NCBI GenBank assembly: GCA_040756035.1
Contig: JBFLZV010000003.1
Location: 11,970 to 75,969, forward strand
Reading direction: 5' to 3'
DNA length: 64,000 bases
Source: Pseudomonadota bacterium
GTDB lineage: Bacteria; Pseudomonadota; Gammaproteobacteria; SURF-13
In this document: one piece after another, positions 1,027 through 35,653 of the stretch
How positions within the stretch are numbered: position 1 is the first letter of the stretch
Layout: every line of letters begins with the position of its first letter
Position numbers and translations under genes: made by a program
Notes under the pieces: model-generated
The model's input: only the letters and a program-made list of their open reading frames with translations
Databases searched by the model: none
What the model was told of the DNA's origin: nothing

Positions 1027-1055
1027 AAAATAAAACCTAACGACCCTAAAAACCC

Positions 1056-1194: not shown

Positions 1195-1253
1195 GGTTTT
1201 ATGTGGTGATCCTTAATGGTATGTGACGGATAGCGAGCGACGGAAGAAATATT

Positions 1254-3065: not shown

Positions 3066-3069
3066 AACG

Positions 3070-3118
3070 GTAATGGGTAAACGATGGTGAGTGATGAGTA
3101 AACCCCGCCCATCACCCA
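3070..3118. repeat. REP-like GGTAATGGGTRA family D unit between convergent gene ends
   Basis: TAATGGGTAAACGATGGTGAGTGATGAGTAAACCCCGCCCATCACCCATCACC; relatives at 35650-35672, 56575-56640 and 59480-59530. Confidence 0.55.
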
Positions 3119-5243: not shown

Positions 5244-5251
5244 GAACGGCG

Positions 5252-6022: not shown

Positions 6023-6185
6023 AGTGCCGATATCATCCTCATATCCGCATGGATATTCAAGAAACTTCCTGTGTGCCGAATGCCCACGCAGCGCGCTTGC
6101 ACGACGGCGCGGCAGCATTTACCATGCGCAGATTTGCGAATCTGACATGGTTTTTGCATAAGGTCTTTCGAATGCTATTTTAACC

Positions 6186-10506: not shown

Positions 10507-10977
10507 TTATTCTTCCAACAACACCACCGCGTACGCGGCGATGCCCTCCGCGCGCCCGATGAAACCCATGCCCTCGGTGGTGGTGGCCTTGATGTTGACG
10601 CGCGATGCGTCGATGCCGAGATCGGCGCTGAGATTCTTTTGCATGGCCGCGAAGTGCGCAGCGAACTTGGGCGCCTGCGCCAGAATGGTAGCGTCAACGT
10701 TGCCAACCGTCAGCTTGTTTTCGCCGAGTAGCGCCGCGATCTTGCGCAATAAAATGCGGCTGTCGATGTTGCGGTATTCGGCCTGGGAATCGGGAAAATG
10801 CCGCCCGATGTCGCCGAGGCCCGCCGCGCCCAGCAAGGCGTCGCAGACGGCATGTATCAGCACGTCGCCGTCGGAATGCGCCAACAATCCCCGCTCATAC
10901 GGAACGTGCACGCCGCCGACGATTAATTTTCGGCCCGGCGCAAAGGCGTGGGCATCGTAGCCGTGTCCTATTTTCAT
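10507..10977 (-). CDS. ispF: 2-C-methyl-D-erythritol 2,4-cyclodiphosphate synthase
   Basis: MKIGHGYDAHAF...HSDGDVLIHA...; 156 aa. Confidence 0.95.
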   Translation of the reverse strand: MKIGHGYDAHAFAPGRKLIVGGVHVPYERGLLAHSDGDVLIHAVCDALLGAAGLGDIGRHFPDSQAEYRNIDSRILLRKIAALLGENKLTVGNVDATILAQAPKFAAHFAAMQKNLSADLGIDASRVNIKATTTEGMGFIGRAEGIAAYAVVLLEE

Positions 10978-11696
10978 AGACCGCGCTCTTGTTGCATAAG
11001 ATAAAATTCCGCGAGCGGCAAATCCTCGGGATAGGTGATTTTAATATTATCGGCGCGTCCTTCCACGAGTGCGGGTTTGGCGCCGAGCAGAATCATGGCG
11101 GAGGCTTCATCGGTGATGGTTTTACCTTGCGCAATAACGCTCTCCAGCGCATCGAGCAACGGCCCGAAGCGAAACATCTGCGGTGTAAACGCGCGCCACA
11201 ATTTTTTTCTGTCCAATACCTTGAGCGCCCCGCCCTCCTCCATCCACATGGTATCGTTCACGCGTCCGGCGAGAAAACCGCCGTGCGCGTGCGCGGACAG
11301 CGTATGGATGAGCTTGTCGATATCGTCGCGGTGCAGGCACGGACGCACGGCGTCGTGCACCAAAACCCAGTCGCGCGCCTGTGCCAAGCCATTTAATTTT
11401 CCGAGCGCGTTTAACACCGAGTACGCGCGCTCCGCGCCGCCCTCGGCGATGAGCAACGGTTTTTCACCCATGCCGCGGACGAACAGTTTCCTTCCCTCGC
11501 CATCGTGCGCGGCCAGCGCCACGACCATTCCGGAAACGGACGGGTGATTATATAAACGCGCGACGCTGTGTTCTATAACGGTGCGGCCGTGCAACGGCAA
11601 ATATTGCTTGGGACGCGCGCCGCCCATGCGCACACCGGCGCCCGCGGCGGGCACCACCGCCCAGTAGCTCACGGGAGTTAAAGGATTCTGTGACAC
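10974..11696 (-). CDS. ispD: 2-C-methyl-D-erythritol 4-phosphate cytidylyltransferase
   Basis: AVVPAAGAGVRMG...KQYL motif; 4-nt overlap with ispF. Confidence 0.95.
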   Translation of the reverse strand: MSQNPLTPVSYWAVVPAAGAGVRMGGARPKQYLPLHGRTVIEHSVARLYNHPSVSGMVVALAAHDGEGRKLFVRGMGEKPLLIAEGGAERAYSVLNALGKLNGLAQARDWVLVHDAVRPCLHRDDIDKLIHTLSAHAHGGFLAGRVNDTMWMEEGGALKVLDRKKLWRAFTPQMFRFGPLLDALESVIAQGKTITDEASAMILLGAKPALVEGRADNIKITYPEDLPLAEFYLMQQERGL

Positions 11697-11801
11697 GGCG
11701 GTCCGTGGAATTTAGGATGGCGGTTTTAGTTGAACTTTTATAATCAAGATTGATTTGACTGCTAATATAGCATATCACTGCGCTCGACCACATTGAGCGG
11801 A

Positions 11802-12617
11802 CTACGCTCCCGCCTGCGCCGCATCGTAGCCATGCACCCACTGCCGGCACTCGACCCTCCGAGCGCGGCCCTGCACGGCCAACGCGGCGGCATAACCGGG
11901 CAAATCAGGCAAGTCATGGAGCGTCCAGCGCTGTTCCTCGGCGGGATCATCTTGCGCGCCGATCACGCGCGGCGCCTCTCCCGGCGCCAGGGTGACGCTG
12001 AATTGATGCAAGGGAAAGCTCAGGCCCTTGCCCAGGGCTTTGATGTACGCCTCCTTGCGCACCCAGCAGGTAAAAAAAGCGCGCTGTCGTTGCGCCGGCG
12101 GCAACGCGCGCAGCGCGGCGATCTCGCGCGCGGAAAAAAATTGCGCGGCGATGTGCTCGTGTTCCGGTTGCGTCTGAACGCGCTCGAGATCGACGCCGAC
12201 TTCGCGCCCGCGCGCCAGCGCGCAGAGCACCACGCCGTGCGAGTGCGCGTAATTAAAGCGCACATCCGACGGATTGCATTGTTCGAGCAAGGCGGGCTTT
12301 CCGTATTCGTTGTAACCAAAGCGCAAGGCGGCGGGCGGCGTGTTTAAATAGCATCCCAGTAGCGTGCGCAGCAGCCCGCGCGCCGCGATGAATTGCGCGC
12401 GGTCTTTTTGAAAGTGAAAGCGCGCGGCCCTGGCTTGCTCATCCGCGCTTAAAAATTCCCGCCAACGCGAAACGTTGATATCACCTATATGCGCGCGCCA
12501 CACGTGCACCGTATCCGTTTCCAACATGAATCGTTGCGGAATGAGCCGCCGGAGCGGCTGTGTTGCCGACATTGTTCCGTTAACCCGCCAGCGATATGGG
12601 TGGACTGAAATCATCAT
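11802..12617 (-). CDS. Sfp-type 4'-phosphopantetheinyl transferase
   Basis: FNYAHSHGVVLCALARGREVGVDLE and WVRKEAYIKALGKG (PPTase motifs 2 and 3); directly downstream of the NRPS; alternative start at 12572. Confidence 0.85.
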   Translation of the reverse strand: MMISVHPYRWRVNGTMSATQPLRRLIPQRFMLETDTVHVWRAHIGDINVSRWREFLSADEQARAARFHFQKDRAQFIAARGLLRTLLGCYLNTPPAALRFGYNEYGKPALLEQCNPSDVRFNYAHSHGVVLCALARGREVGVDLERVQTQPEHEHIAAQFFSAREIAALRALPPAQRQRAFFTCWVRKEAYIKALGKGLSFPLHQFSVTLAPGEAPRVIGAQDDPAEEQRWTLHDLPDLPGYAAALAVQGRARRVECRQWVHGYDAAQAGA

Positions 12618-15600
12618 CGTGCACCGCTGCCGTTTCTTTTGCCTCTTTTTCCGCCTGCGCCCGCGCCGTACTGATGCAATCGCTTAGGTGCTTGGCCAAC
12701 GTACGCACTTGCGGTTCGCGGAAAATGGTAATGTGGTCACAGTCCAGGCTATAGCTTTCCACGCCGCGCGCAGCCAAGCGCTCCCATTCGCGCTGATAAC
12801 GCGCATGGCGGCGCCGCGTGATGCTCTGGCTCGCCCAAAACAAGGTAATGCGCCCGGGATAAGGGCCGGTCCGATACACCTTTTGCGCCCGCACGTCGGC
12901 GTCGAACACGTACTGCGTGCGCACGGCCTCCGGGATGGTCAAGCCCAGGGCGCGAAATAGTTTGTAGATTCCCCGCTTGCTGCTTAACCGCAATTTCTTG
13001 CCGACTTTTTCCGCAAGATACAATGCTTTTCCCTTGCCATCGAGCAAATTTAGATTATCCCAGTGTTCGCGCAATTTACTGCTGTGGGGCGCCGGCGCAG
13101 AATTGCCTTGCACACATGGGCTGGGGCTGTCGATCAGCGCGAGCAGCGCCACCTGCTGACCTTGCGCGTGAAGTTTGCGCGCCAGTTCAAAGGCGATCCA
13201 GGCGCCGAAGCAAGCGCCGCCTAGATAATACGGCCCTTCGGGTTGCAGCGAGCGTATCGCCTTGAGGTAATTTTCCGCCATGTCTTCCACGCGCGTTAAC
13301 GGCGTTTGTTTACCGTCCAGTCCGGGCGGCTGCAATCCGTAAAACGGCTGATCCGCGCCGAGATGGCGCGCCAGTTGGCGCATCCCGAAAAGATTTCCGC
13401 CCGCGCCGGTGATACCGAAGAAAATGGGCTGCGCGCCCGCGGGCTGAATCGCCACCAGCGGCGACCACGCCGGCGCGCAGCCCTCCTGGCGCAGCAGCAT
13501 GGCCAGCTGTTCGACGGTGGGCGCCTTGAATAGATCGGCCACCGGCAAATTTTTCCCGAAAGTTTTTTTGATGTGCGCAACCAAACGCACCGCCAGCAGC
13601 GAGTGTCCGCCGCGCTCGAAGAAATCGTCGCGCACGCCGATATTGCGCACACCCAGCACCTTTTCCCATATTCTCGTGAGCTGCAACTCCAAATCGTCGC
13701 GCGCGGCCATGTACGTGGACCGCTGCCCCGTCTCCTCCGATCCCGGCAAGGCGTGCTTATCGACCTTGCCGTTGGGGGTGAGCGGCAGGGCCGCGAGGGG
13801 CAACAGGTATTGCGGCAACATGTACGCCGGCAGTTTGCTTTGCAGGTAGGCGCGCAGCGCCTCGGTGTCGCACGCGGCGCCGGCGCGGGGTACGACGTAG
13901 GCGGCGAGGTGTTTGTCGCCGGATGGCTCGTGGCGCGCCACCACCACGCTCTCGCGCACCGCCGGATGTTGCGCGAGCACCGCTTCGATTTCGCCGAGCT
14001 CGATGCGGAAGCCGCGGATTTTGACTTGCCGGTCGCGCCGCCCGAGAAACTCGATGACGCCGTCGGGCCGGTAACGCGCCAGGTCGCCGGTTTTGTAGAG
14101 ACGCTGCCCCGGCGCGTAGGGATGCGGGATGAATTTTTCCGCGGTCAAGTCGGGCTGGTTGAGGTAGCCGCGCGCCAGGCCGTCGCCGCCGATGTACAGT
14201 TCGCCGGGCACGCCGAGGGGCACGGGGTGCAGGCACCGGTCGAGGAGGTAGACGTGGGTGTTGGCGATGGGCCGGCCAATGGGGACGCCGCCGGTTAGGG
14301 GTTGGTCGCGCGGGATGCGGTAACAGCAGGTGAAGGTGGTGTTTTCGGTGGGGCCGTAGCCGTTGATGAGCTGGCAATCGGGAAGATGCTGCAACACCTT
14401 TTGGGCGTGCGGGACGGACAAGACGTCGCCGCCGGCCAAGAGTTGACGCACGGGCTTGAGGGCGTCGAGGCGTTCGTCGACCATTAAATGGAACAGGCCG
14501 GCGGTGAGCCAGAGGATGCTGACCTGGTGCCGGCGCAGAGTTTCGCCGAGCAATTCCAGGGACGGGGTTTGATCGGGTAATAGGACTAAGCGGGCGCCGT
14601 TGAGCAGCGCACCCCAGATTTCGAACGTGGAGGCGTCGAAGGTGAGGGGGGCGGCTTGCAGGAATACGTCGGTGGGGCAAATGTGGACATAGTCGGTGTT
14701 TTTCACCAAGCGCACGACGCCGCGCTGGGGGACGAGCACGCCCTTGGGTTGGCCGGTGGAGCCGGAGGTGTAGAGGATGTAGGCGAGGCTGTCGGCGCTG
14801 GCCTGGCTTACCGGGTTGTGGTCGGGGTAGTGCTGCTGCAAGCTCGGCCAGTCGCTGTCGAGACACAGAGTCGGCACGATACTATCGGGAAGGCGCGCAC
14901 GCAGGTGCGCCTGGGTAAGCAGTAATGTAATGCCGGCGTCTTGCAGTATGAAGCGTTGCCGTTCGGCGGGATACGCGGGGTCGAGCGGGACGTAGGCGGC
15001 CCCGGCTTTGAGGATGGCGACGAGGCCGACGAGCAGGTCGAGCGAGCGTTCCAGACACAGGCCGATGCGCACTTCGGGGCCGGCGCCGTGGGCTTGCAGG
15101 TGGTGGGCGAGTGCGTTGGCGCGCTGGTTGAGTTCGGCGTAGGTGAGCTGGGCGTGTTCATGGACGAGGGCCACGTGGTCGGGGGTGGCCGCGGCTTGTT
15201 GTTCGAAGAGTTGCGCGAGCGTGGCGTCGCGCGGGTAGGGGGTGGCCGTGGCGTTCCCATCGTGCAGCAGGGCTTGGCGCTCCTCTTCGGTGAGTAAGGC
15301 CAGTTCGCTTAGGCGCTTGCCGGGGTGGGCGGAGAGGTCGTCCAACAATACACTAAAATGATCGCATAAGCGCGCGATGGTCGCCGTTTCGAACAGATCC
15401 GTGTTGTATTCGAACGTGACGGTCAATTCCGAACCCGCTTCTTCCGCCACGAATAACGTCAGATCGAACTTTGCCGTTTGATTGTTGACGTTCAACGGCG
15501 TCAGCGTCAGACCCGGAAACTGCACCGTTTGCCGGGTATTGCTTTGCAGGACGAACGCCACTTGAAACAGCGGCGTGTGACCGAGGTTGCGTCCCGGCTG

Positions 15601-16740
15601 CATCGCCTCGACCAACTCCTCGAACGGCAATTCTTGATGATCGTAAGCTTCCAGCGCCGTTTCACGCACGCGTTGCAACGCCTCGCTGAAACTCGGGTCG
15701 CCGGAAAGATCGGTGCGCAGCACCAGCGTGTTGAGAAAAAAACCGATCAGCCCCTCGACTTCGAGCGACAGGCGATTGGAAATAGGCGAGCCGACGATGA
15801 TATCGTCTTGGCTCGTATAGCGATGCAACAACACCTTGAACGCCGCGAGCACGGTCATGAACAAGGTTGCGCCATGGCGTTGACTCAACGCGGCGAGCGC
15901 CTTGCCCAGCGCGGCGGGCAGGCGCCGCGTATACACTCCGCCGCGAAAAGTCTGCATGGCGGGGCGCGGGTGATCGGCTGGCAGTTCCAACATCGACAGT
16001 TCACCGCGCAATTTATTTTTCCAGTAGGCAAGCTGCCGCTCGCGCACGCCCTCTTGCAGGCGTCGCCGCTGCCAGCACGCGAAATCGGCATACTGAATGG
16101 GCGGATCGGCGAGCGGCGCGGCGACGCCGCGCCGGTAGGCGTCGTACAGCGCCGCCATTTCGCGCTTGAGAATGTCGCGCGACCACAGGTCGAACACGAT
16201 GTGGTGCACGTTGAGCAGCAGCACGTGTTCCTGCGCGCCGGCGCGCAGCAGCGTGGCGCGCAGCAGCGGGCCGCGCGCCAGGTCGAACGGCCGGGATGCC
16301 TCCTGGGCGGCGCGGCGCTCGATTTCGGCGGCGCGTGTGTTTTCCGGCGCGTGACTCAAATCGATGACGGGCAATGTTATTTCGCGCGGTGGATGGATCA
16401 CTTGCCGCGGTTCGCCGTCCACGTTTTCAAACGTGCTGCGCAGCGTCTCGTGGCGGCGCATAACTTCGCTGAGCGCGCGTTGCAGCGCGGCGACGTCGAG
16501 CGCGCCGTGCAGTTTCCAGGCGTCGAATACGTTGTACAGGGCGCTGTCCGGGTGCCACTGCTCGAGAAACCATAAGCGTCGTTGCGCGAACGACAGCGGT
16601 GCGTCATCGCCCGCTGCGCGCGGCGTAATGCGCGGCGCCGGCGTCGCTGCGACACCCTGCTCTTCCAGTAACAAGGCAAGCAGCTCTTCTTGCGCGCTGT
16701 TCAAATCCGCCGTGCCACTCCCTTTCATCTCCGCACTCAC
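12580..16740 (-). CDS. NRPS termination module C-A-T-TE (TE with GxCxG)
   Basis: C domain (HHIVFDLWS), A domain (LTYAELN, YTSGSTGQPKGV, NGYGPTENTT, YKTGDLARY, GRRDRQVKIRGFRIELGEIE, LPNGKVD), PCP (FFERGGHSLLAVRL), TE (GITGAGGN...LGGACFGAW); likely start MKGSG/GTG ~16728-16740 after an RBS GGAGGAGAG. Confidence 0.9.
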   Translation of the reverse strand: MSAEMKGSGTADLNSAQEELLALLLEEQGVAATPAPRITPRAAGDDAPLSFAQRRLWFLEQWHPDSALYNVFDAWKLHGALDVAALQRALSEVMRRHETLRSTFENVDGEPRQVIHPPREITLPVIDLSHAPENTRAAEIERRAAQEASRPFDLARGPLLRATLLRAGAQEHVLLLNVHHIVFDLWSRDILKREMAALYDAYRRGVAAPLADPPIQYADFACWQRRRLQEGVRERQLAYWKNKLRGELSMLELPADHPRPAMQTFRGGVYTRRLPAALGKALAALSQRHGATLFMTVLAAFKVLLHRYTSQDDIIVGSPISNRLSLEVEGLIGFFLNTLVLRTDLSGDPSFSEALQRVRETALEAYDHQELPFEELVEAMQPGRNLGHTPLFQVAFVLQSNTRQTVQFPGLTLTPLNVNNQTAKFDLTLFVAEEAGSELTVTFEYNTDLFETATIARLCDHFSVLLDDLSAHPGKRLSELALLTEEERQALLHDGNATATPYPRDATLAQLFEQQAAATPDHVALVHEHAQLTYAELNQRANALAHHLQAHGAGPEVRIGLCLERSLDLLVGLVAILKAGAAYVPLDPAYPAERQRFILQDAGITLLLTQAHLRARLPDSIVPTLCLDSDWPSLQQHYPDHNPVSQASADSLAYILYTSGSTGQPKGVLVPQRGVVRLVKNTDYVHICPTDVFLQAAPLTFDASTFEIWGALLNGARLVLLPDQTPSLELLGETLRRHQVSILWLTAGLFHLMVDERLDALKPVRQLLAGGDVLSVPHAQKVLQHLPDCQLINGYGPTENTTFTCCYRIPRDQPLTGGVPIGRPIANTHVYLLDRCLHPVPLGVPGELYIGGDGLARGYLNQPDLTAEKFIPHPYAPGQRLYKTGDLARYRPDGVIEFLGRRDRQVKIRGFRIELGEIEAVLAQHPAVRESVVVARHEPSGDKHLAAYVVPRAGAACDTEALRAYLQSKLPAYMLPQYLLPLAALPLTPNGKVDKHALPGSEETGQRSTYMAARDDLELQLTRIWEKVLGVRNIGVRDDFFERGGHSLLAVRLVAHIKKTFGKNLPVADLFKAPTVEQLAMLLRQEGCAPAWSPLVAIQPAGAQPIFFGITGAGGNLFGMRQLARHLGADQPFYGLQPPGLDGKQTPLTRVEDMAENYLKAIRSLQPEGPYYLGGACFGAWIAFELARKLHAQGQQVALLALIDSPSPCVQGNSAPAPHSSKLREHWDNLNLLDGKGKALYLAEKVGKKLRLSSKRGIYKLFRALGLTIPEAVRTQYVFDADVRAQKVYRTGPYPGRITLFWASQSITRRRHARYQREWERLAARGVESYSLDCDHITIFREPQVRTLAKHLSDCISTARAQAEKEAKETAAVHDDDFSPPISLAG
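14738..15340. repeat. 603-bp direct repeat copy 1 (C-A linker to core A3 of the A domain), 602/603 identical to 18187-18789
   Basis: Base-by-base comparison of the two stretches; identical 150-aa and 118-aa ORFs in the track (14808..15260 = 18257..18709; 14941..15297 = 18390..18746). Confidence 0.95.
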
Positions 16741-16742
16741 GA

Positions 16743-19700
16743 CTACTCTCCTCCAGCCCGTTTGATCGCCCGCCGCTGCGCCAACTGGGCGCGCACCGCT
16801 TCCGGGCTGAGTTGAGCGACCTCGGTATACAAGCGCGCGCGTGCCTCGAGGCGGGCTGGGTCGGAGACCGTCGCGGTGAGCCGCGCGCATAAGGCGCTCA
16901 CGGAGGGAGCCTCAAACAGGGTGCGCACCGGCACGCTCACCCCCAACGCCTCACGCAGCCGCGCCAACACCTGGATGGCCAGCAACGAGTGTCCGCCGAG
17001 CGCGAAGAAGCCGCTGTGGCGGTCGATTTGCCCGCGGCCTAATACTTGCGCATAGAGCATGGCGATGACCTGTTCGATAGGACCCTCGGGGGCCGCGCCG
17101 GGGACGGGCATAACGCTAGCCTCTACAGGCGGGGCCGGTAAGGCGTTGCGGTCGAGTTTGCCGTGACGGGTAAGCGGGAGCTGGGGCAGGCTGACATAAG
17201 CGCTTGGCAGCAAGTACTCGGGCAGGCGCGCGCTAAGGTGAGCGCGCAGGCTCGCCTCGTCCGGCTTGTCGCCGTCGCGCGCGACGATATAAGCCACCAG
17301 ACGCGCGTCGGCTGCTCCCGGACTCTTGCCCTGCGCGATAATCGTGCGTTCCCGCACATCGCCGGGCGCGTCTTCGCGTACGCTGACGGCGGCGGCTTGC
17401 ACGCCCGGGTGGGTCTGAAGGAGAGCCTCGATCTCGCCCAGTTCGATACGGTAGCCTCTGAGTTTGACTTGGCCGTCCAGGCGCCCGAGATATTCCAGCA
17501 TCCCGTCGGAGCGGCGGCGTACGCGGTCGCCGGTTTGGTAAAGCCGTGCCCCCGGCTGGTAGGGGTCAATCACAAAACGCTGGATGGTGAGATCGGGGCG
17601 ATTGAGATAGCCACGTCCGACCCCCGTCCCGCCGATATAGAGTTCGCCCGCCACGCCCACGGGCACGGGCTGGCGCTCTGCGTCAAAAATGCGTAGGCCG
17701 ACATGCGGGAGGGCGTGGCCGAGGTGTGGGGTGCTGCCGGGGGTGAGGCGCGCGAAGGTAGCGTCCACGGTGCATTCGGTGGGACCATAGAGGTTATAGG
17801 CGGCCCAGTCGGGACAGGCGGCAATCGCCTCCCATAGACCGGACACGAGGGCCTCGCCGCCGATGAGCAGGCAGATTGGGCGGTAGGTGTCCGGGGCGAG
17901 CAGGCCGGCCTGGGTGAGCAAGGTAAGCTGGGTCGGCGTGGTATCGAGGACGTCGATGCGCGCCGTGGCAAGGTACTCCAGCAGGGCCGCGCCGTCCGGG
18001 CGGCAGGCCTCGGGCACCAGGCACAGGGTGTGACCGCTCAGCAGTTGCAGCCATTGTTTGACGGAAGTGTCGAAATAGATCGGACCGTTGAGGCTCACGC
18101 GCAGAGGTCGCGCGGGCGCGAGGTCGTGATAGACGGTATCGGCCAGGGCCTGGTGCAAATGAACCAGAGCGCCGTGTTCGATCATGACGCCCTTGGGTTG
18201 GCCGGTGGAGCCGGAGGTGTAGAGGATGTAGGCGAGGCTGTCGGCGCTGGCCTGGCTTACCGGGTTGTGGTCGGGGTAGTGCTGCTGCAAGCTCGGCCAG
18301 TCGCTGTCGAGACACAGAGTCGGCACGATACTATCGGGAAGGCGCGCACGCAGGTGCGCCTGGGTAAGCAGTAATGTAATGCCGGCGTCTTGCAGTATGA
18401 AGCGTTGCCGTTCGGCGGGATACGCGGGGTCGAGCGGGACGTAGGCGGCCCCGGCTTTGAGGATGGCGACGAGGCCGACGAGCAGGTCGAGCGAGCGTTC
18501 CAGACACAGGCCGATGCGCACTTCGGGGCCGGCGCCGTGGGCTTGCAGGTGGTGGGCGAGTGCGTTGGCGCGCTGGTTGAGTTCGGCGTAGGTGAGCTGG
18601 GCGTGTTCATGGACGAGGGCCACGTGGTCGGGGGTGGCCGCGGCTTGTTGTTCGAAGAGTTGCGCGAGCGTGGCGTCGCGCGGGTAGGGGGTGGCCGTGG
18701 CGTTCCCATCGTGCAGCAGGGCTTGGCGCTCCTCTTCGGTGAGTAAGGCCAGTTCGCTTAGGCGTTTGCCGGGGTGGGCGGAGAGGTCGGCGAGCAGCGT
18801 CTGGTAGTGCCGCGCCCAGCGTTCGATGGTCGCGGCGTCGAATAGGTCGGTGTTGTAATCCCATTGTACGCGGAACTCGCTGCCCGTCTCGACGATGTTC
18901 ACCTTGAGATCGAAGTTAATATTCTTTTTCGGATTACTGCGAGCTTCCACGTGCAAGTCGTGGAACATTAGATGATCCTGTGCATAATCCACGTTGAACG
19001 TCACCGTGGTAAGCGGCGTTCTGCCGGGATCGCGCGTGACGTTGAGTTTCTCCAGTAAACTCCCGTACGTGTAGTGTTGATACTCATGAATATCCAGAAC
19101 GGCGGCCTTTATCTCTTTTAGAAAGTCGGCTGCTTTTTTCTCGCCCATCACGGGTCGCCGCAGCGGTAGAAAATTCACGCAGTGGCCGACCAGACTGTCG
19201 CCGCTTACCGGAATTTGCCCGGCGGCGGGAATGCCGACCACGATGTCTTCCTGCCCGCTCATGCGATGCAGGAAAACCTCAAACGCCGCCAGCAACATGC
19301 AGAATAACGTGCAACTATGCCGCATCGCCGCGCGCTTTATATCTTGATAAAGTGGTTGCCCGATACTGAAAACATAGCGCGCGCCGTTATAAGTGAGCAC
19401 GGGAGGACGCGGGCGGTCAGTGGGCAACTCCAGCGCCGCAACCGGTTCGGAAAACTGTTGCACCCAGTAAGTCTCGGCGGCGACGCGCTCCGGGCTTTGC
19501 GCCTGCTCTGCTTGCAGGCGTGCGTACTCGCTGAATTGCATGGGCGGCGCCAGCGCCGCGTCCGTGCCCGTGCACGCCGCCGCGTAAAGCGCGCCGAGAT
19601 CGCGCAGCAGCACGCCCACCGACCAGCCGTCGCACACGATATGATGCGCGGTAATGAGCAAAAAGTGATGCAAATCTTCCAGCTTCACCAAGTGGAAGCG

Positions 19701-22700
19701 CAACAGCGGGCCGGTGGTGAGATCGAATGCGCGCCGCACATCGTGCTCCACCAGTGCGCTCATTTTCTCGGCACGCTGCTCCGCATTCAAATTAGAGAAG
19801 CCTAGAATCGGCACCTCGGCGGTCATCGTCGGCAGAATTTCCTGATAATCGCCCTGCGCGCTGAATACGGTGCGCAACGCCTCGTGGCGCGCGACCAAAT
19901 TTTGCACGGCCTCGCGCAGCGCGGCGTTGTTCAACGGGCCGCGCAGATGCAGCATCAGGGAATCGTTGTAACAACACGATGCCTCCTCGCCCAGCTGCGC
20001 GGCGATCCAAAGTTCCTTCTGAGGTCCGGTCAACGGCAAGCGCACCGGCTCGCGCGCCTCGGCGCTTCGCGCGATCTCGCGCCGCACCGGCTGCGGCGAG
20101 TCGGCCTCCTGCTCCGCGGGCTCGGGGAAAAATCCGCCCGCCTGCATTTCCGCAATGCTTTCCTTGAAGGCGCGGATGATTCGATCGATGTCCTCGTCGC
20201 TGTGCGCGGTGGAAAGAAAGCACGGGCGGCCTTCCCAAATGTGGATACCCTTGTCGCGTAAATGATAAAAAAGCAGGCCGGCGAATTTTTGCTCGCCCTC
20301 GAAGTGCACATAGAACATGGAGCTGAAATGTGTGATGCGCACGGGTGCTTGATGTGCACGGAAATAATCGTTGAGCACCGCGGCCAAAGCCGCCGTTTTG
20401 CGATTCAACTGCTCCTGCAAACCGGGCCCGCTGCGTTTCAAGTGTTCGAGCACCGCGCGCGCCGCGGTCAAAGCGAGAGGATGGCGCACGAAGGTGCCGG
20501 CAAAGAACGTCACGCCGACCTCCGGAAACGAGTTGTCTCCGTAATTCCACGCGCCGCCGTCGAAGGCGTCCAGATAACGCGCCCGCCCCGCCAACGCGCC
20601 GATGGGCATGCCGCCGCCGATCACCTTGCCGTAGGTGGCGAGGTCGGCGCGCACGTCGAACAGCGCCTGCGCGCCGCCGGGATGCGCGCGGAAACCGGTG
20701 ATGACTTCATCGAAGATGAGCGCCGTGTCCGAGGCCGCGGTCAGGCGCCGCACCTCTTGCAGAAATTCCCTGGGTTGCAAATCGGGATGCCGGCTCTGCA
20801 CGGGTTCGACCAGCACGGCGGCGAGTTGCGGGCCGTGCTTTTTCAGCAACGCGAGCGACGCGGGCGCACCGTACTCCAAAACCAGCACGTCCTGCACCAT
20901 GTGTTCCGGTATGCCGGGCGCTATCGGCAGCGGGCGCGAATGTCCGCCGCGCGTGGACGCGCGCACCAGCACTTCGTCGAAAATGCCGTGATAAGAGCCG
21001 GCGAACAACGCGATTTTGTCGCGCCCGCTGACGGTGCGCGCCGCACGCAGCGCCGCCATCACCGCCTCGGAACCGGTGTTGCAAAAAATCGCGCGCTCCA
21101 TGCCGGTGAACGCGCACAGCGCTTCCGCGACTTTGCCGGCCAGCGGCGAAGTCGGCCCGATTTCCATGCCCGACTCGAGCTGATCCTGCAACGCCTCGGT
21201 GACGAAAGGCGGCGCATGGCCGAATAGATTGACGCCGAAGCCCATGGTCAAGTCGATATACTCATTGCCGTCCACGTCCCAAATTTTGGAGCCGGACGAA
21301 CGCGCGGCGACGATCGGATAAACCATTTCCTTCCATTGCAAACGAAATCCAGAAACCGCGCGCGGGTCGCAAAAATGCGCGCGGTGCGCCTTGGTGTAGC
21401 GCTTGGACTCCGCGGTGCGCCGCGTATAGCGCCCGATCAACGCCCCCAAGTGTTTTTGCTGACGCGCGTTGAGGCCGCCGCCGATTCCTTTTTCAATGGG
21501 CTTGTAAGGGCCAAAGGGCTTACTCTCCGCGCGCGCTTCCCGCACCGTGTGCCGCGCCATGCTCGCCGGCGCGCCCACGTCGGGCGCCGCAGCCTCGGCG
21601 TTTCCGGCCTTGCCCCAGAGTGCGGCGCTGCGGCGCAACTCCTCCAATTGTTTTTCAATGAGCGCCAATTGCCGCGCCACGGCGTCGGCCTGCGGTTGCG
21701 CGGGAGCGGTTTTCTCCGAGGCGGAATCGGATACTTCATCCTCGCGCAACGCCTCGGTCGGCAAGGAACGATCCAGGTAGCCCGCCAGCGCTTCCAGCGT
21801 GGCGGATTCCTCCAGCAGTTGGCGGAACGGAACTTTCACGTTGAATTTTTTTTGCAGCGCGTGGCTGATCTGCGTGAGAAACAGAGAATCAAAGCCCATT
21901 TCCAAAAACGTCGTGGTGGCGCCGATGGCGGTTATGTCCAACCCCGACAATTCGCTCAAAGCCTCTTGCAGCATCGGCAGCAGCTTTTCCCGCCGGCTGA
22001 ACGACTTTTTTACACTCGTTTCAATCATTTGTTCCTCAAGCATGACGCCCTCCTCGCACTCTTCTCCCTTAATGATTTTTTGTGCAACTCTATTTTTTGC
22101 GCGCGGCGGTTCCACCCAGTAATGTTTCCGCTCGAACGCGTAACCGGGCAATGGCACGCGCCGCCGCCGCTCATGCGCGTGAAATTGCGTCCAATTAACC
22201 GTCGCGCCGGTCAACCACAACCGGCCCACGGCATCCAGCAAACAAGCGATGTCCGACCGATTATCCTGTGCGGCGCGTGCCGAGGTGATAACGGATTGCT
22301 CGGCGCGCTTGGCGGGATGCTGGCGCGCCAGCGTGCTCAGTGTTTGTCCGGGGCCGACTTCCAAAAGAACGTGTTCGGTTTTGTTCAGCAGCGTTTGCAA
22401 GCCGGCGGCGAAACGCACGGTGTGGCGCATGTGCCGCACCCAGTACTGCGGATCGGTCGCCTGCGCGGCGTCGATCCACGTTCCGGTGACGTTGGAGACG
22501 TAGGGAATCTGCGGGGGATGCAGGGCAACTTTGCGCAGTTGTTCGAGAAACGGCGCGAGGATCGGCTCCACCATCATGGAGTGGAAGGCGTGCGAGGTGT
22601 GCAGGCGCCGGTGCACGATTTCTTCCTTGGTGAGCCGCTCTTCCAGCGCCTCGATCGCGGCGTTCGGACCGGACACGACGCACAGCGCGGACCCGTTCAC

Positions 22701-24740: not shown

Positions 24741-24774
24741 GTTATTCTCCCTGTCCGACTCGTATTCTACCTAC

Positions 24775-30192
<5,418 letters not shown>

Positions 30193-30276
30193 TAAACCCT
30201 CCTCCCTGAGGTTCACCGATGTTTTAATTAATCCCGCATTAACTCGCGGCGCGCATAATGCACGCGGCGCCCGCAA

Positions 30277-30649
30277 AGTCGGGCGCGGACAAAACTAACG
30301 GGGAGGAAATCGACGTTACAGCCGCTGGTTGATTCATGGCGCTCCTTGTCCGTTGTTATTGGCGCTCGTCAAACCTGCCGTCCGAAAATATTCGCAAACA
30401 GATCTCCGCGCCTTGCGTTCCTGCTTACACCTTTTTTGCAAAAGTGTAACAAGCGAGATACACACGCTCTTTCCTGCAAATACAATCAAATACTTGCAAG
30501 TAATAAAGAAAAGCAAAGATTCGGGCTTTGCTTTTCGTGCTCCGAGAAGCCGGGAACGGGCTTCAAGGTTCCTCTATAAATATAGTAAATTTTAAACAAA
30601 AGCAAGAGCTTTTTCCGCCGGACGGCCACGGGCGCGCCGGTCCGCGCAA
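30277..30649 (-). promoter_or_regulatory. AT-rich (~40% GC) internal intergenic region of the NRPS island. It carries the perfect palindrome TACTTGCAAGTA (30491-30502), the near-palindrome TACACCTTTTTTGCAAAAGTGTAA (30428-30451) and the hairpin AAGCAAAG/CTTTGCTT
   Basis: GC drop relative to flanks; palindromes read directly in the sequence; sits immediately upstream of the FkbH-NRPS start. Confidence 0.5.
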
Positions 30650-33600
30650 TCAGCGCGTTCGTTCATTGCGCGCAACCGCCTCCGGATGTTCGCGGCGCGC
30701 CCGCAAGGCCGCGTCGATACGGCGCGCCAGATCGGCCAGCGTAGGCGTTTCAAAAAACGTGCGTAACGGAATTTCCACGCGCAGCGCGGCGCGCAGCCGC
30801 GAGATAATTTGCGCGGCGTGCAGGGAATGGCCGCCTAATTCGAAGAAATTATCGTGCCTGTCAATGTGCGCCAAGCCCAGCACATCCTTCCAAATTTCTC
30901 CCAGTGCGTTTTCCAGCGCGCCCTCTAGAAAATAGTCGGAAGCTCGATGCTGTTTGGGGGGTGGCAAAGCGTGATAATCCACTTTACCGTTGGGCAGACG
31001 CGGCAAGGCGTCCAGCACCACGAACAACGGCGGCACCATGTGTTCGGGCAGCGCGCGCCGCGCGAAACTGCGCAACTGCGCAACCAGCAAATGGCGGCTG
31101 TCATCGACGACGCCGGACGTTGCCGGTTTGTTGGCGTAGTCACTCCAATTTTTACGGCGCACCGCTTCCGGCTCGAATCGGAACACCGGCCGCCGGACGT
31201 ACTGCATTCTCTTGCGCTGCAACAGCACGTCGAAGCAGTCGAGATGCGCGTCGCCCGACCATGTAATGCTCGCCTGATAACCTAATTCTTCACCCAGCGC
31301 CCATAAGTCTCCGGGCTCCACGCCGATCTCACGCGGCGACTCCTGTAATATTTTGCGCAATTCGCCCGCGTTCGCGGTGATGGCGTCCGCCTCCAATAAT
31401 TCCAAGGCCTTCACCTCACTTAGCAGACGTGCATTGGGAACATGCTTGATGCCCAGGGTGTCTGTACTATTTTCCGCCAGCAGCCGGCGCAACGCCGCAA
31501 TCGTCAAACCATGTTTCCGCCAGTCCAGCCACGTGATATACAACGCGTGGGAGGACGATGCCCCGATGTGCAGCATCACATCATATTTGAAGCGCGTGAT
31601 TTCATTGTGGCAGCGCCCGCCTTTGAGCTGCATCTCCACGTGGCTAATCTTGGGCAGACGCTCGGCCAGTGCATTAAACAAGGCGGGGTCGACGGCCAAG
31701 TCCTTTTCGCGCGCCAAGTGTTCCTGTACGAGTTTACATAGATCGGCCTTGGTCGTTGCAGGCGGGGCAAGCCGCATCTGCACCGAGGCGTGAAACACTT
31801 TCAGCAACGGCAAACTGCGAATGCCGCCGAGAAACACCACGCCGCCGGGCTTGACGTGTTCAACGGCGTTTTCCAAGACGTTGATAAGATATTCCACGCC
31901 GGGGAAGTGCTGCACGACCTCATTGATAACGACGACGTCAAACTTCTCGACCCCGCACGCCACCGCTTCATGCGCCGCCTCGTGCAGCAGTGTCAACGTA
32001 GCGAATTTGGCGGGACGCGTCGCCATACGCCGCTGCAGGCGCTCGATGGCCACGGAGGAAATGTCCGTGCCGCAATAATGTTTACAATGCGGACCGATTC
32101 TGTCCAGCAGTAAACCAGAGCCGCAGCCGATCTCCATAACGCGCGCGGGTTGCAGCGCCAGAATACGCCGCGCGGTATCGTCCACGCATTCGGTAATCTC
32201 CTCCAGCGGCAGCGCCTCGCGCGTATAACTACTGATCCAAATTTTTAAATTAATCGCCGCGTCCGTTTGCAAAAAGTCCTGGTCCTGACCGTAAAGATCG
32301 TCATACATGGCGCGATATTGTTCGACGTGGCGCACGTCCTCGCCACCCTTGTATTTCGGTTCGTCCACGGCATCGGCGCACAGCGGGAACTTCGGCGCCA
32401 CGTATGCCACCAAGCGCTTGTCGCCGAGCGTATCCTCGCGCACCATCACCGCGGCCTCGCGCACCGCGTCGTGTTCATGCAGCACGGCCTCGATCTCGCC
32501 CGGCTCGATCCGATAACCGCGCAGCTTTACCTGGCGGTCCATGCGGCCTATAAACTCCAGATCGCCGCTCGGCAAGTAGCGCGCCAGATCGCCCGTTGCA
32601 TACAAACGCGCGTCCGGTGCGGAGCTGAACGGATCGGCGATGAATTTCTGCGCGGTCAAATTGGGCTGGTTAAGATAACCGCGCGCCACGCCCGGCCCGC
32701 CGATGCACAGTTCGCCCGCCGCACCCTCCGTCACCGGGCGGTGTTGTGCGTCCAGCAAATAAATGCGCGTGCCGGCCGGCGCGCGGCCGATGGGCACCGG
32801 CGTCTTGGCATCGTGCCGACGGCAGTCATACACACTGCACCACACCGTGCCCTCGGTGGGCCCATATTCATTGAACAACGGCGTTGCGCCCAACGCCGCG
32901 CGGTGCCGCTCCACCAATTTGATCGGGCAGACTTCCCCCGCCACGACCACCGTGCGCAGCGAAGTTAGTGCGTACGTCTCCGCATGTTCTAAAATGTGCT
33001 CATAGAAAACCGGCAGGCACAGCAGGTGCGTAATCCGGCTCTGTTCGATTGTGCGCGCAACATACGCGGGATCACGTTGCAGATCGGGAGTCAGTAGGAA
33101 CAGCGTCCCACCTTGGCACAGTGTCCAGTAAATGCCTGCCACCGAACTATCGAAAGCGAATTGCGAGAGCAACAGGAAGCGCGCGACCGGGATTTTGTAA
33201 TAATCCAACCGCGCGCGCGTGGAGTATGCAAGGTTCTTGCGCGTGATTAGCACGCCCTTGGCGCGCCCCGTCGATCCGGACGTGTAAATAACATAGGCGA
33301 GATTTTGCGCGTGCGCGGCGTCGGAAATATTTTCCGCGCTCTCGCGATTGATTGCGGACATCGCGGCGTCGAGTTGCACGATGCATCCACCGAAACGCGG
33401 GAAGCGCCCGCTCATGGCCGCGCCGGTGAGCAACAGCGATGCGCGCGCGTCTTCCAGCATCCAAGCCAGACGCTCATGCGGATATGCCATATCCAGAGGC
33501 AAATAGGCCGCGCCGCTTTTTAGAACGCCGAGCATACCGAGCAGCATATCCAGCGGGCTATTCAAGTAAAGCGCCACCAGCACATCTGGGCCGGCGCCCG

Positions 33601-33757
33601 CCTTACGCAAGTGGCGTGCAATTTGATTGGCGCGCCGGTTCAACGCGCCGTAACTGACGGATTCTTGTTCGAATACTAAGGCGATAGCATCGGGTGCGCG
33701 CGTCGCCCGCGCCTCGAACCAACGCAGCACGCATTGATTTTCCTCATCGGCGCTCAT
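30650..33757 (-). CDS. free-standing NRPS initiation didomain A(N-methyltransferase inserted)-T
   Basis: A domain core motifs (LSYGALNRRAN, YTSGSTGRAKGV, NEYGPTEGTV, GRMDRQVKLRGYRIEPGEIE ... LPNGKVD) with a ~500-aa insertion between A8 and A10 containing the SAM motif VMEIGCGSGLLLD; C-terminal PCP FFELGGHSLHAAQI; no C domain. Confidence 0.9.
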   Translation of the reverse strand: MSADEENQCVLRWFEARATRAPDAIALVFEQESVSYGALNRRANQIARHLRKAGAGPDVLVALYLNSPLDMLLGMLGVLKSGAAYLPLDMAYPHERLAWMLEDARASLLLTGAAMSGRFPRFGGCIVQLDAAMSAINRESAENISDAAHAQNLAYVIYTSGSTGRAKGVLITRKNLAYSTRARLDYYKIPVARFLLLSQFAFDSSVAGIYWTLCQGGTLFLLTPDLQRDPAYVARTIEQSRITHLLCLPVFYEHILEHAETYALTSLRTVVVAGEVCPIKLVERHRAALGATPLFNEYGPTEGTVWCSVYDCRRHDAKTPVPIGRAPAGTRIYLLDAQHRPVTEGAAGELCIGGPGVARGYLNQPNLTAQKFIADPFSSAPDARLYATGDLARYLPSGDLEFIGRMDRQVKLRGYRIEPGEIEAVLHEHDAVREAAVMVREDTLGDKRLVAYVAPKFPLCADAVDEPKYKGGEDVRHVEQYRAMYDDLYGQDQDFLQTDAAINLKIWISSYTREALPLEEITECVDDTARRILALQPARVMEIGCGSGLLLDRIGPHCKHYCGTDISSVAIERLQRRMATRPAKFATLTLLHEAAHEAVACGVEKFDVVVINEVVQHFPGVEYLINVLENAVEHVKPGGVVFLGGIRSLPLLKVFHASVQMRLAPPATTKADLCKLVQEHLAREKDLAVDPALFNALAERLPKISHVEMQLKGGRCHNEITRFKYDVMLHIGASSSHALYITWLDWRKHGLTIAALRRLLAENSTDTLGIKHVPNARLLSEVKALELLEADAITANAGELRKILQESPREIGVEPGDLWALGEELGYQASITWSGDAHLDCFDVLLQRKRMQYVRRPVFRFEPEAVRRKNWSDYANKPATSGVVDDSRHLLVAQLRSFARRALPEHMVPPLFVVLDALPRLPNGKVDYHALPPPKQHRASDYFLEGALENALGEIWKDVLGLAHIDRHDNFFELGGHSLHAAQIISRLRAALRVEIPLRTFFETPTLADLARRIDAALRARREHPEAVARNERTR

Positions 33758-34079
33758 GCGTCACCCTATTTATTCGTGCGAGGCGGCTTCTTGTCGAAGA
33801 ACGGCCGCAGCGATACCCGTATGCGGCACGATCGCAAAATTTTACTGCACGAGGGTGGGGGCTGGAGACAAGCCGGCCAAGCCGACACGGTGAAGAAGTA
33901 CAGCACGATGCGTCGTCCATAACGCTCCTTATTCTGTTATAAAATGTTACCGCTAGTTTTTTACTTGCATCGAAAAATATCTCAAAAAATTTAAAAGAGC
34001 AAGTATTTTATTTTTTGAAAAGTTCGTGCCCAAAAATAAAACCGCGCGGCACAGACAAGGGCGCTCAAGAAATTTACAG
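33758..34079 (-). promoter_or_regulatory. AT-rich (~35% GC) region upstream of the NRPS island, downstream of ftsB; it has the half-sites TACTTGC (33962-33968) and GCAAGTA (33999-34005)
   Basis: Strong local GC drop; motif shared with the 30491-30502 palindrome. Confidence 0.5.

Positions 34080-35653
<1,574 letters not shown>

What the first reader, a model, noticed from the sequence alone, without database searches (positions are those of the whole stretch)
11802..34079. 22-kb hybrid NRPS-PKS island inserted into the conserved ftsB-ispD-ispF operon
The flanks are pyrG-kdsA-eno-ftsB and ispD-ispF (all minus). In most gammaproteobacteria ftsB is immediately followed by ispD; here they are separated by about 22 kb that encodes only secondary-metabolite enzymes. 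From upstream to downstream these are an A(MT)-T, an FkbH-T-C-A-T, a KS-AT-ACP-AMT-C-A-T, a C-A-T-TE and an Sfp-type PPTase. The island is bounded on the ftsB side by a ~320-bp AT-rich (~35% GC) stretch, against ~65% for the window. It contains no transporter, regulator, MbtH-like or type II thioesterase gene. The predicted scaffold is a glycerate-primed short lipodepsi/peptide-like product with one beta-aminated ketide unit, which matches no named compound I can assign from the sequence. The island also probably sets transcription of the essential ispDF genes.
Basis: partly seen in the sequence, partly recalled or inferred. Interest (0 to 1): 0.88.

Follow-up and report, generated by a model that had tools for sequence, protein, structure and literature searches.

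The report
Orphan NRPS-PKS cluster between ftsB and ispD
An intact 22-kb gene cluster for an unknown small peptide-polyketide sits between two housekeeping genes that are adjacent in nearly all related bacteria, and it is an old, inherited feature of a small uncultured bacterial lineage rather than a recently acquired mobile island.

Summary
Five intact minus-strand genes fill the 22.4 kb between ftsB (34080-34352) and ispD (10974-11696): A(MT)-T, FkbH-T-C-A-T, KS-AT-ACP-AMT-C-A-T, C-A-T-TE and an Sfp-type PPTase. All catalytic motifs checked are present. In 141 of 160 other gammaproteobacterial loci ftsB lies within 400 bp of ispD, and none carries NRPS genes there.

"Recently inserted island" is not supported. 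GC and codon usage match the core genome. There are no repeats, tRNA or mobility genes. The few closest relatives found carry NRPS genes at the same junctions: L173 and L174-176 after ftsB, L170 before ispD. The layouts differ, but the first A domain's specificity code is conserved.

Predicted building blocks:
- (methyl-)His
- glycerate
- Thr
- one malonate unit aminated at the beta carbon
- Glu (less certain)
- Val

Release is by a thioesterase with a cysteine nucleophile. No lipid-loading domain exists, so "lipo" is unfounded. The A(MT)-T has no cognate C domain; in relatives it docks onto the next C-A-T as a starter, and in L173 it is a second loader beside FkbH-T.

No characterised close homologue or described product was found. 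This is a new member of a known kind, in an unusual, stably inherited location. Control of ispDF transcription is untested.

The parts
34080..34352 (-). ftsB (90 aa), upstream boundary gene
   Evidence: NCBIfam FtsB NF002058, 116 bits against a cutoff of 101. Its start overlaps the eno stop.
33758..34079 (-). ftsB|A(MT)-T spacer (322 bp, 46% GC). It holds a terminator-like hairpin at 34042-34054, a promoter-like site at 34005-34032 and an AT-rich core at 33930-34079 (33% GC).
   Evidence: The equivalent spacers in L173 and L174 also hold a hairpin after ftsB and an AT-rich tract (the hairpins there were read by eye).
30650..33757 (-). Stand-alone A(MT)-T, 1035 aa. Domains: A 32390-33718; MT 31817-32167, inserted between A8 and A9; T about 30716-31015. 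Specificity code DSALVAEVWK (His).
   Evidence: Pfam. Aligns end to end with the interrupted A-MT domain structure 5WMM. Code. DSALIAEVWK is listed as a His code in PMC12283262. The code is conserved in L173 and L174.
30193..30649 (-). 457-bp spacer (50% GC) with an 11-bp-stem terminator-like hairpin at 30508-30536 after the A(MT)-T gene, and a 32-aa ORF at 30239-30337
24775..30192 (-). FkbH-T-C-A-T, 1805 aa from the ATG behind GGGAGGAGGG. Domains: FkbH 28567-29529, T 28087-28275, C1 26680-28017, A2 25156-26622 (code DFWNIGMVHK, Thr), T 24877-25074.
   Evidence: TIGR01686 FkbH, 282 bits. HAD motif DCDQT, HHTVYDG and both carrier serines present. Code; Thr assignment. 1805-aa gene call in L087.
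16743..24740 (-). KS-AT-ACP-AMT-C-A-T, 2665 aa. Domains: KS 23607-24737, AT 22206-23168 (GHSLG/HAFH, malonyl), ACP 21771-21968, AMT 20226-21320, C2 18714-20039, A3 17157-18656 (code DTKDLGLVDK, Glu-like), T 16878-17069.
   Evidence: Pfam and NCBIfam. KS Cys (TACSTS), HGTGT and NIGH; AMT DEVITGFR and KVIGGG. No KR, DH or ER domain.
12580..16728 (-). C-A-T-TE, about 1382 aa. Domains: C3 15265-16608 (HHIVFDL), A4 13765-15207 (code DAFWLGGTFK, Val), T 13501-13680, TE 12682-13380 with a Cys nucleophile (GACFG, codon 13210-13212), Asp 27 residues after it, and His in the CDH motif.
   Evidence: Val code in PMC9113097. The best solved relative, AB3403 (4ZXH), has GWCFG at the same position. The sibling cluster's TE has GYCNG.
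11802..12527 (-). Sfp/HetI-type 4'-phosphopantetheinyl transferase (241-aa gene call; the ORF extends to 12617)
   Evidence: PF01648 and PF22624. HetI model at 197 bits, below the equivalog cutoff. Gene calls in L001-L004.
11697..11801 (-). PPTase|ispD spacer (105 bp, 43% GC). No terminator-like site on the coding strand. Possible promoter TTAGCA-17-TATAAA.
   Evidence: The promoter was read by eye and was not reported by the scan.
10507..11696 (-). ispD (10974-11696) and ispF (10507-10977), downstream boundary genes with overlapping stop and start
   Evidence: PF01128 at 208 bits and PF02542 at 228 bits

Best explanation
This is a functional, chromosomally fixed hybrid NRPS-PKS biosynthetic gene cluster. 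It entered the ftsB|ispD junction in the ancestor of a small, sparsely sampled, uncultured gammaproteobacterial lineage. Since then it has been inherited with the core genome and remodelled in place.

Inferred assembly line:
1. The PPTase primes six carrier domains.
2. FkbH takes a glyceryl unit from 1,3-bisphosphoglycerate and puts it on its T domain.
3. C1 joins the glyceryl unit to Thr.
4. KS and a malonyl-specific AT extend the chain by two carbons. No KR is present, so the beta-keto group is kept.
5. The AMT domain converts the beta-keto group to a beta-amine. This gives a 3,4-diamino-5-hydroxyhexanoyl unit.
6. C2 adds Glu and C3 adds Val.
7. A thioesterase with a Cys-Asp-His triad releases the chain, by hydrolysis or by cyclisation onto the free beta-amine or a hydroxyl.

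The separate His-activating A(MT)-T has no C domain of its own. It most likely supplies methyl-His as an alternative, or second, acyl donor to one of the existing C domains.

What is shown: gene and domain content, motif integrity, specificity codes, and conservation of the locus. What is inferred: the order of chemistry, the release mode, the role of the His loader, and the product.
For: - Domains and motifs are intact.
- Specificity codes: His, Thr and Val match published codes. The GrsA numbering was self-validated.
- Composition is native. GC is 62.0% against 61.2% and 61.8%, and the RSCU correlation is 0.98.
- There are no repeats, tRNA or mobility genes.
- L173 (pyrG 87%, kdsA 88%, eno 80% identity) has the same site and order: ftsB, A-MT-T, FkbH-T, TubC_N-C-A(Thr)-T, KS-AT-ACP-AMT.
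- L174-176 (eno 84%) have ftsB, A-MT-T, docking-domain-C-A(Val-like).
- L170 (ispD 80%) has TE-PPTase-ispD.
- The nearest genomes without the cluster are more distant (pyrG 80-81%, eno 72%) and have ftsB 77-112 bp from ispD.
- Selection is purifying. dN/dS is 0.25 for the PPTase gene and 0.24 for ispD. The His code is kept although the protein is only 50% identical.
- Role of the His loader. In L173 the T domains of A-MT-T and FkbH-T are 95.6% identical in DNA, and both proteins end in RIQGEI. The next protein starts with a TubC_N docking domain. In L174 and L177, A-MT-T is followed directly by docking-domain-C-A-T.
- The sibling two-gene cluster (54% and 51% identity) has the same core and also a Cys thioesterase.
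Against: - No product, expression or chemistry data exist.
- The Glu assignment for A3 rests on an 8/10 match to a code recalled from memory.
- In the window the His loader has no docking tail like RIQGEI, and no C domain carries a beta-hairpin docking domain. How it feeds the line here is therefore open. C-domain and T-domain identities do not discriminate between C1 and C3 as its partner.
- No single relative shows both junctions, because their contigs are short. 'Whole cluster conserved at both ends' is assembled from different contigs.
- The TE end is much more similar between the window and L170 (dS 0.16) than the neighbouring genes are (dS 0.53-0.69). This hints at recombination between lineages rather than purely vertical descent.
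- No exporter or regulator is nearby.
Confidence: 0.72

Rival explanations
1. A recently acquired horizontal genomic island, mobile or phage/ICE-borne, that happened to land in the ftsB-ispD operon of this one genome.
For: The ftsB-ispD junction is uninterrupted in 141 of 160 other loci. An AT-rich tract lies at the ftsB side. Small accessory insertions occur at the same junction in two unrelated MAGs, L052 and L037. The low dS of the TE end against L170 would fit exchange between lineages.
Against: Composition and codon usage cannot be told apart from the core genome. There are no direct repeats, tRNA, integrase or transposase. Three to four diverged lineages carry NRPS genes at the same junctions, with only 50-60% protein identity, which implies long residence. 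AT-rich promoter-like spacers are present at the same place in L173 and L174.
Confidence: 0.08
2. Two products rather than one. The His loader and the terminal C-A(Val)-T-TE form an older, separate dipeptide line producing methyl-His-Val. The FkbH and PKS genes were inserted between them later, so the terminal module serves two upstream donors.
For: In L174-176 the A-MT-T gene is translationally coupled to a C-A protein whose A domain has the Val-like code and is 55% identical to the window's C-A-T-TE. In the window a terminator-like hairpin and a 457-bp spacer separate A-MT-T from the FkbH gene. The C-termini of both A-MT-T and the PKS-NRPS protein are basic, and the N-terminus of C-A-T-TE is acidic (inference).
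Against: The L174 contigs end inside the second gene, so FkbH and PKS genes may follow there too. In L173 the His loader shares its docking tail with FkbH-T and so points at C1, not C3. C-domain identities do not resolve orthology.
Confidence: 0.15
3. A decaying or silent relic cluster, or an assembly or binning chimera.
For: There is no transporter, regulator or MbtH gene. The third C domain has HHxxxDL instead of HHxxxDG. The source is a MAG.
Against: All five ORFs are uninterrupted, with complete catalytic motifs. dN/dS is 0.14-0.25. Specificity codes are conserved across lineages. Both junctions are reproduced at 99.8-100% identity in independent assemblies from several sequencing runs.
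Confidence: 0.03

Closest known systems
FkbH-primed NRPS lines: OciA of the Planktothrix cyanopeptolin/oscillapeptin cluster, and the vioprolide and corramycin loading modules
   Same: An FkbH (HAD-type) domain and T domain ahead of C-A-T supply a glycerate-derived N-terminal unit. OciA is 52% identical over 57% of the FkbH protein. Corramycin combines an FkbH unit with an MT-containing His module (PMC10099666).
   Different: OciA carries FkbM methyltransferase and sulfotransferase domains. Vioprolide and corramycin start with FAAL-ACP-C-FkbH-T. None has a KS-AT-ACP-AMT module next, and none is a close homologue. Corramycin is a 12-module line in a myxobacterium.
PKS modules with an aminotransferase domain: McyE/NdaF of microcystin/nodularin, and MycA/ItuA of mycosubtilin/iturin (architecture recalled from memory)
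   Same: KS-AT-ACP-AMT-C-A-T makes a beta-amino acyl unit that is passed to an amino acid. In McyE this amino acid is Glu, as predicted here.
   Different: Here the KS extends a glyceryl-Thr intermediate, which would give a vicinal 3,4-diamine rather than a beta-amino fatty or aryl acid. No sequence comparison with McyE was made here.
Thioesterases with a Cys nucleophile (GxCxG): AB3403 of Acinetobacter baumannii (4ZXH) and ObiF of obafluorin
   Same: GACFG aligns with GWCFG of AB3403, the best solved match. The Asp sits 27 residues after the nucleophile, on the canonical strand as in AB3403 and EntF. The GxCxG motif is discussed as favouring acyl transfer and strained-ring closure (PMC6668435).
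   Different: ObiF closes a beta-lactone on a C-terminal beta-hydroxy residue and has a shifted Asp. Here the C-terminal residue is Val. The AB3403 product is uncharacterised.
Uncultured sibling cluster L088/L089 (JGI 3300017789; ENA ERZ27252430)
   Same: PPTase, FkbH-T-C-A(Thr)-T (54% identity) and KS-AT-ACP-AMT-C-A-T-TE (51% identity), with a Cys thioesterase.
   Different: It has two genes only, with the TE fused. The last A domain's code is DAFFLGVTFK. There is no His loader and no extra Val module. It lies in a polysaccharide-biosynthesis locus, not at ftsB-ispD.
Alternative starter modules and beta-hairpin (TubC_N-type) docking: the two anabaenopeptin starter modules in Anabaena (recalled from memory)
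   Same: In L173 two separate loader proteins carry the same carrier domain and C-terminal tail, upstream of one docking-domain-C-A-T protein.
   Different: The window genome has fused FkbH-T to C-A-T and lost the docking domain. Whether two starters are still used here is unknown.

Membership tests
Hybrid type I PKS / NRPS assembly-line gene cluster | Multidomain proteins with C, A and T domains and with KS, AT and ACP domains, each with catalytic motifs | tested here: met
   Pfam and NCBIfam hits are far above cutoffs. Motifs present: HHxxxD in all three C domains, A3 and A10 motifs, six carrier serines, KS Cys/His/His and AT GHSLG.
Hybrid type I PKS / NRPS assembly-line gene cluster | A chain-release domain and a cognate PPTase | tested here: met
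   TE PF00975 at 90 bits with a Cys/Asp/His triad. PPTase PF01648 and PF22624.
Hybrid type I PKS / NRPS assembly-line gene cluster | Collinear donor-acceptor logic for every module | tested here: not met
   The A(MT)-T has no downstream C domain of its own and, in this genome, no recognisable docking partner. The other four loading and extension steps are collinear.
FkbH-type glyceryl-loading starter | FkbH (TIGR01686) domain with the HAD DxDxT motif, directly followed by a carrier domain | tested here: met
   TIGR01686 at 282 bits against a cutoff of 147. VLDCDQTL and a T domain with GGDSL.
FkbH-type glyceryl-loading starter | Uses 1,3-bisphosphoglycerate and yields glyceryl-S-carrier | not testable with these tools
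   Biochemical property. Inferred from family knowledge and PMC10099666.
Beta-amino-forming PKS module (McyE/MycA type) | KS-AT-ACP, then a class-III aminotransferase domain with a PLP lysine, with no KR | tested here: met
   PF00202 at 182 bits at aa 1141-1505. DEVITGFR and YGKVIGGG present. No KR, DH or ER hit.
Mobile genomic island (integrative element) | Integrase or transposase, a tRNA or repeat-flanked attachment site, and atypical composition | tested here: not met
   No such genes. No tRNA. No junction repeats of 9 bp or more in direct orientation. Composition equals the core genome.
Mobile genomic island (integrative element) | Patchy presence among close relatives, with empty sites | tested here: inconclusive
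   All contigs found from the nearest lineages (L170, L173, L174-176) are occupied. Empty sites are seen only in more distant genomes. Sampling of the lineage is very thin.
Known, named natural-product cluster | A close homologue (above about 60-70% identity, same architecture) with an assigned product | tested here: not met
   The best non-self hits are unnamed metagenomic proteins at 54% (FkbH protein) and 50% (A-MT-T). Named hits are at most 52% identical over partial length. No paper combines the features. MIBiG and antiSMASH were not available.

The most novel reading that the evidence does not exclude
The cluster may be a lineage-defining part of the core genome that has taken over the ftsB-ispDF operon. 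The essential MEP-pathway genes would then be transcribed from the tail of the biosynthetic operon. The product, rich in metal-binding groups (imidazole, carboxylate, vicinal diamine, diol), would be a physiological molecule such as a metallophore or an envelope-associated factor. It would be made in two N-capped series, glyceryl or methyl-His, by two loader modules competing for one condensation domain.
Probability: 0.12. Interest if true: 0.6.

Novelty: new member of a known kind. Interest (0 to 1): 0.4.

Why it matters
- It adds an uncharacterised hybrid NRPS-PKS family, from an uncultured gammaproteobacterial lineage, with a concrete prediction of building blocks that can guide heterologous expression. 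The family is defined by a glycerate starter, Thr, a beta-aminated ketide and a Cys thioesterase.
- It shows that a large biosynthetic cluster can sit stably inside one of the most conserved gene junctions of Gammaproteobacteria. There it diversifies in place by gene fission and fusion, module gain, and carrier-domain gene conversion. This is a useful natural example of assembly-line evolution and of loader and docking exchange.
- It is not a new kind of system, and nothing here bears on a long-standing open question.

Tried and rejected
- **Searching for close relatives with ispD.** They were useful only as a synteny background. The protein-database search found one relative at 80%.
- **Exact look-up of the 271-aa PPTase ORF.** It failed because the called start differs.
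- **Acidobacterial FkbH-T-C-A-T homologues of about 1800 aa.** Tested as possible members of the same cluster family and rejected. They sit with sulfotransferase, TauD and Wzt-type transporter genes and have no PKS-AMT partner.
- **Deciding which C domain the His loader feeds.** Neither C-domain nor T-domain identity matrices resolved it.
- **Intergenic features.** I looked for MbtH-like genes, docking motifs, riboswitches, tRNAs and Pfam hits for small intergenic ORFs. Nothing was found.
- **Literature.** Searches for ftsB/ispD with NRPS, for FkbH with AMT and His, and for the accession numbers found nothing.
- **Glu code.** It could not be confirmed from the held papers.
- **Not used.** Structure prediction, fold search and the representative-protein search, because no open question depended on them.

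Full report
**What is there.** The window comes from contig JBMOPP010000001.1 of a MAG labelled only 'Pseudomonadota bacterium' (GCA_049322975.1). On the minus strand the order is pyrG, kdsA, eno, ftsB (34080-34352), five biosynthetic genes, ispD (10974-11696) and ispF. The five genes are:
- A with an embedded methyltransferase, then T (30650-33757).
- FkbH-T-C-A-T (24775-30192, from the ATG behind a strong ribosome-binding site).
- KS-AT-ACP-AMT-C-A-T (16743-24740).
- C-A-T-TE (12580-16728).
- An Sfp/HetI-type PPTase (11802-12527).

The rest of the window is ordinary core chromosome: tilS, accA, dnaE, lpxB, fabZ, lpxD, skp, bamA, cdsA, uppS, map and glnD on one side, and Smr and GGDEF-EAL genes on the other. 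It holds no transporter, regulator, integrase or transposase that could belong to the cluster. It also has no tRNA or Rfam RNA.

**Is the position unusual?** Yes. I collected 160 gammaproteobacterial loci around ispD from genome and metagenome collections. In 141 of them ftsB lies less than 400 bp upstream (median gap 51 bp). None has NRPS, PKS or PPTase genes there. Only two have anything in the gap: 4 kb including a PIN-domain ORF in L052, and 1 kb including a DUF4325 ORF in L037. The arrangement is not an assembly artefact. Independent assemblies from other sequencing runs reproduce both junctions at 99.8-100% identity.

**Is it a recent island?** No.
- The cluster is 62.0% GC, against 61.2% and 61.8% in the flanks. 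Its codon usage correlates with core genes as well as core genes correlate with each other (r = 0.98).
- The junctions share no direct repeats.
- The few relatives that exist carry NRPS genes at the same junctions.
  - L173 (pyrG 87%, kdsA 88%, eno 80%, ftsB 76% identical) has ftsB, A-MT-T (50%), FkbH-T as a separate 726-aa protein, TubC_N-C-A-T (58%) and KS-AT-ACP-AMT (60%).
  - L174-176 (eno 84%) have ftsB, A-MT-T (50%) and then a docking-domain-C-A protein.
  - L170 (ispD 80%) has the end of the TE, the PPTase (69%) and ispD.
- The nearest genomes without the cluster are more distant (pyrG 80-81%, eno 72%) and have the usual tight ftsB-ispD junction.

The simplest reading is one acquisition in the ancestor of these lineages, followed by long residence and rearrangement in place. 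One complication is that the last 80 codons of the TE are far more alike between the window and L170 (dS 0.16) than the PPTase gene (0.69) or ispD (0.53) are. Some exchange by recombination between lineages is therefore likely. dN/dS values of 0.14-0.25 show purifying selection.

**Is it functional?** As far as sequence can tell, yes. All ORFs are uninterrupted. The following motifs are present:
- C domains: HHTVYDG, HHIVCDG and HHIVFDL.
- All four A domains: the A10 lysine motif. A3 is the standard TSGSTGQPK in A2-A4 and a variant, TSGSTGRAKG, in A1.
- All six carrier serines.
- KS: the Cys/His/His set (TACSTS, HGTGT, NIGH).
- AT: GHSLG with HAFH, the malonyl type.
- AMT: DEVITGFR and the PLP lysine (YGKVIGGG).
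- FkbH: the HAD motif DCDQT.
- MT: the SAM-binding motif VMEIGCGSG.

The thioesterase has a cysteine nucleophile, GACFG, with Asp 27 residues later and a C-terminal His. Its best solved relative, AB3403 (4ZXH), has GWCFG at the same position. The sibling cluster has GYCNG. Cys thioesterases are a known minority type (PMC6668435).

**What does it make?** I extracted Stachelhaus codes against GrsA. My recalled GrsA sequence returned the expected DAWTIAAICK at the canonical positions, which validates the numbering. The codes are:

| A domain | Code | Assignment | Basis |
|---|---|---|---|
| A1 | DSALVAEVWK | His | 9/10 match to DSALIAEVWK, listed as a His code in PMC12283262; 10/10 in L174 |
| A2 | DFWNIGMVHK | Thr | Same paper |
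| A3 | DTKDLGLVDK | Glu-like | 8/10 match to the SrfA-A Glu code DAKDLGVVDK, recalled from memory |
| A4 | DAFWLGGTFK | Val | PMC9113097 |

The collinear part gives glyceryl-Thr, then one malonate extension whose beta-keto group is aminated, then Glu, then Val, then release by the TE. The Thr-derived ketide would be a 3,4-diamino-5-hydroxyhexanoyl unit. There is no fatty-acid loading function, so 'lipo' is unfounded. Cyclisation through the free beta-amine or a hydroxyl is possible, but that is only inference.

**The odd piece.** The His-activating A(MT)-T has no condensation domain to hand its substrate to. In the window it is set off by a terminator-like hairpin (30508-30536) and a 457-bp spacer.

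Its MT is inserted between A8 and A9, and the protein aligns end to end with the TioS interrupted A-MT structure 5WMM. It has N-methyltransferase-like motifs (NEITRFKYD, VPNARL, compared with motifs recalled from memory). Corramycin offers a precedent for an MT-containing His module proposed to methylate the imidazole (PMC10099666). The methylation site here is therefore open.

Relatives explain the loader's origin. In L174 and in the unrelated L177, A-MT-T is directly followed by a TubC_N-docking-domain-C-A-T protein, so there it is a normal starter module. In L173 the T domains of A-MT-T and FkbH-T are 95.6% identical in DNA over 136 nt. Both proteins end in RIQGEI, and the next protein begins with a TubC_N docking domain. 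So two loaders appear to serve one C domain.

In the window FkbH-T is fused to C-A-T, the docking domain is gone, and the His loader's tail is different. Whether it still feeds C1, feeds C3 (the rival two-product model), or acts otherwise cannot be settled. T-domain and C-domain similarity does not discriminate.

**Transcription.** Each ftsB-side spacer has a hairpin after ftsB and then an AT-rich tract, in the window, L173 and L174 alike. This fits termination of ftsB transcription followed by a cluster promoter. Between the PPTase gene and ispD there is no terminator-like site. The spacer is 105 bp at 43% GC in the window and 49 bp and very AT-rich in L170. Read-through from the cluster into ispDF is possible, and so is an independent promoter.

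**Comparison with known systems.** Every element has precedent:
- FkbH-primed NRPS lines: OciA at 52% identity over 57% of the protein, and vioprolide and corramycin.
- PKS-AMT modules of the McyE and MycA type (from memory).
- Cys thioesterases.
- Interrupted A-MT domains.
- Docking-mediated alternative starters.

The closest relative of the core is an unnamed two-gene metagenomic cluster (54% and 51% identity) lying in a polysaccharide locus. No named protein exceeds 52% identity over partial length. No paper links these features or this locus. MIBiG and antiSMASH were not available.

**Verdict.** The 'inserted island' interpretation is only partly right. The cluster is an insertion relative to the gammaproteobacterial norm, but an old one fixed in the lineage. 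It is an orphan member of a well-known class, with an uncommon combination of domains and an unusual, stable chromosomal address. It is of moderate interest for natural-product discovery and for studying how assembly lines evolve, and it is not a new kind of system.

Noticed in passing
window 33744-33920 (-) and 30239-30337 (-): Two short ORFs (58 aa, Cys-rich, MDDASCCTSSPC...; and 32 aa) lie in the two large spacers of the cluster. Each sits behind an AAGGAGCG-NN-ATG ribosome-binding site. The first overlaps the A(MT)-T start. Neither has a Pfam hit, and neither is conserved in sequence in L173 or L174.
   Followed up: partly
window 12583-12822 vs L170 3-242: The last 80 codons of the thioesterase are 95% identical in protein, with dS 0.16, between the window and L170. 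The adjacent PPTase gene and ispD have dS 0.69 and 0.53. This suggests recent recombination of the NRPS end between lineages.
   Followed up: partly
L173 12990-13213 and 15970-16194: The carrier domains of the His loader and of FkbH-T are 95.6% identical in DNA over 136 nt, and both proteins end in RIQGEI. This looks like gene conversion that keeps two loaders compatible with one docking-domain-C-A-T protein.
   Followed up: partly
L052 385-4456; L037 9004-10001: Two unrelated methanotroph MAGs also have something in the ftsB|ispD gap: 4 kb including a PIN-domain ORF, and 1 kb including a DUF4325 ORF. The junction is occasionally invaded elsewhere.
   Followed up: partly
L171 and L172 (Acidobacteriota-type contigs): FkbH-T-C-A-T homologues of about 1800 aa (47-49% identical) sit in a different, recurrent cluster type. 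It has a sulfotransferase, a C-TauD protein, SDR genes and a Wzm/Wzt-type ABC transporter.
   Followed up: no
L088 1-4200 and 19179-19613: The closest sibling cluster is embedded among polysaccharide export and synthesis genes (SLBB, Bac_transf, Polysacc_synt). Its PPTase gene appears split into two calls (118 and 158 aa), possibly by a frameshift.
   Followed up: no
window 52259-54394 (+): A 711-aa plus-strand ORF with no Pfam hit lies where other genes (for example rseP and dxr) would be expected on the minus strand, between bamA and cdsA. It is probably a spurious GC-rich shadow ORF.
   Followed up: no
window 1-7300: Several ORFs at the left end (234-887, 1272-2642, 3504-4022, 5439-5990, 6186-7277) have no Pfam family. 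They lie next to a DUF498 gene and a VTT-domain membrane protein.
   Followed up: no
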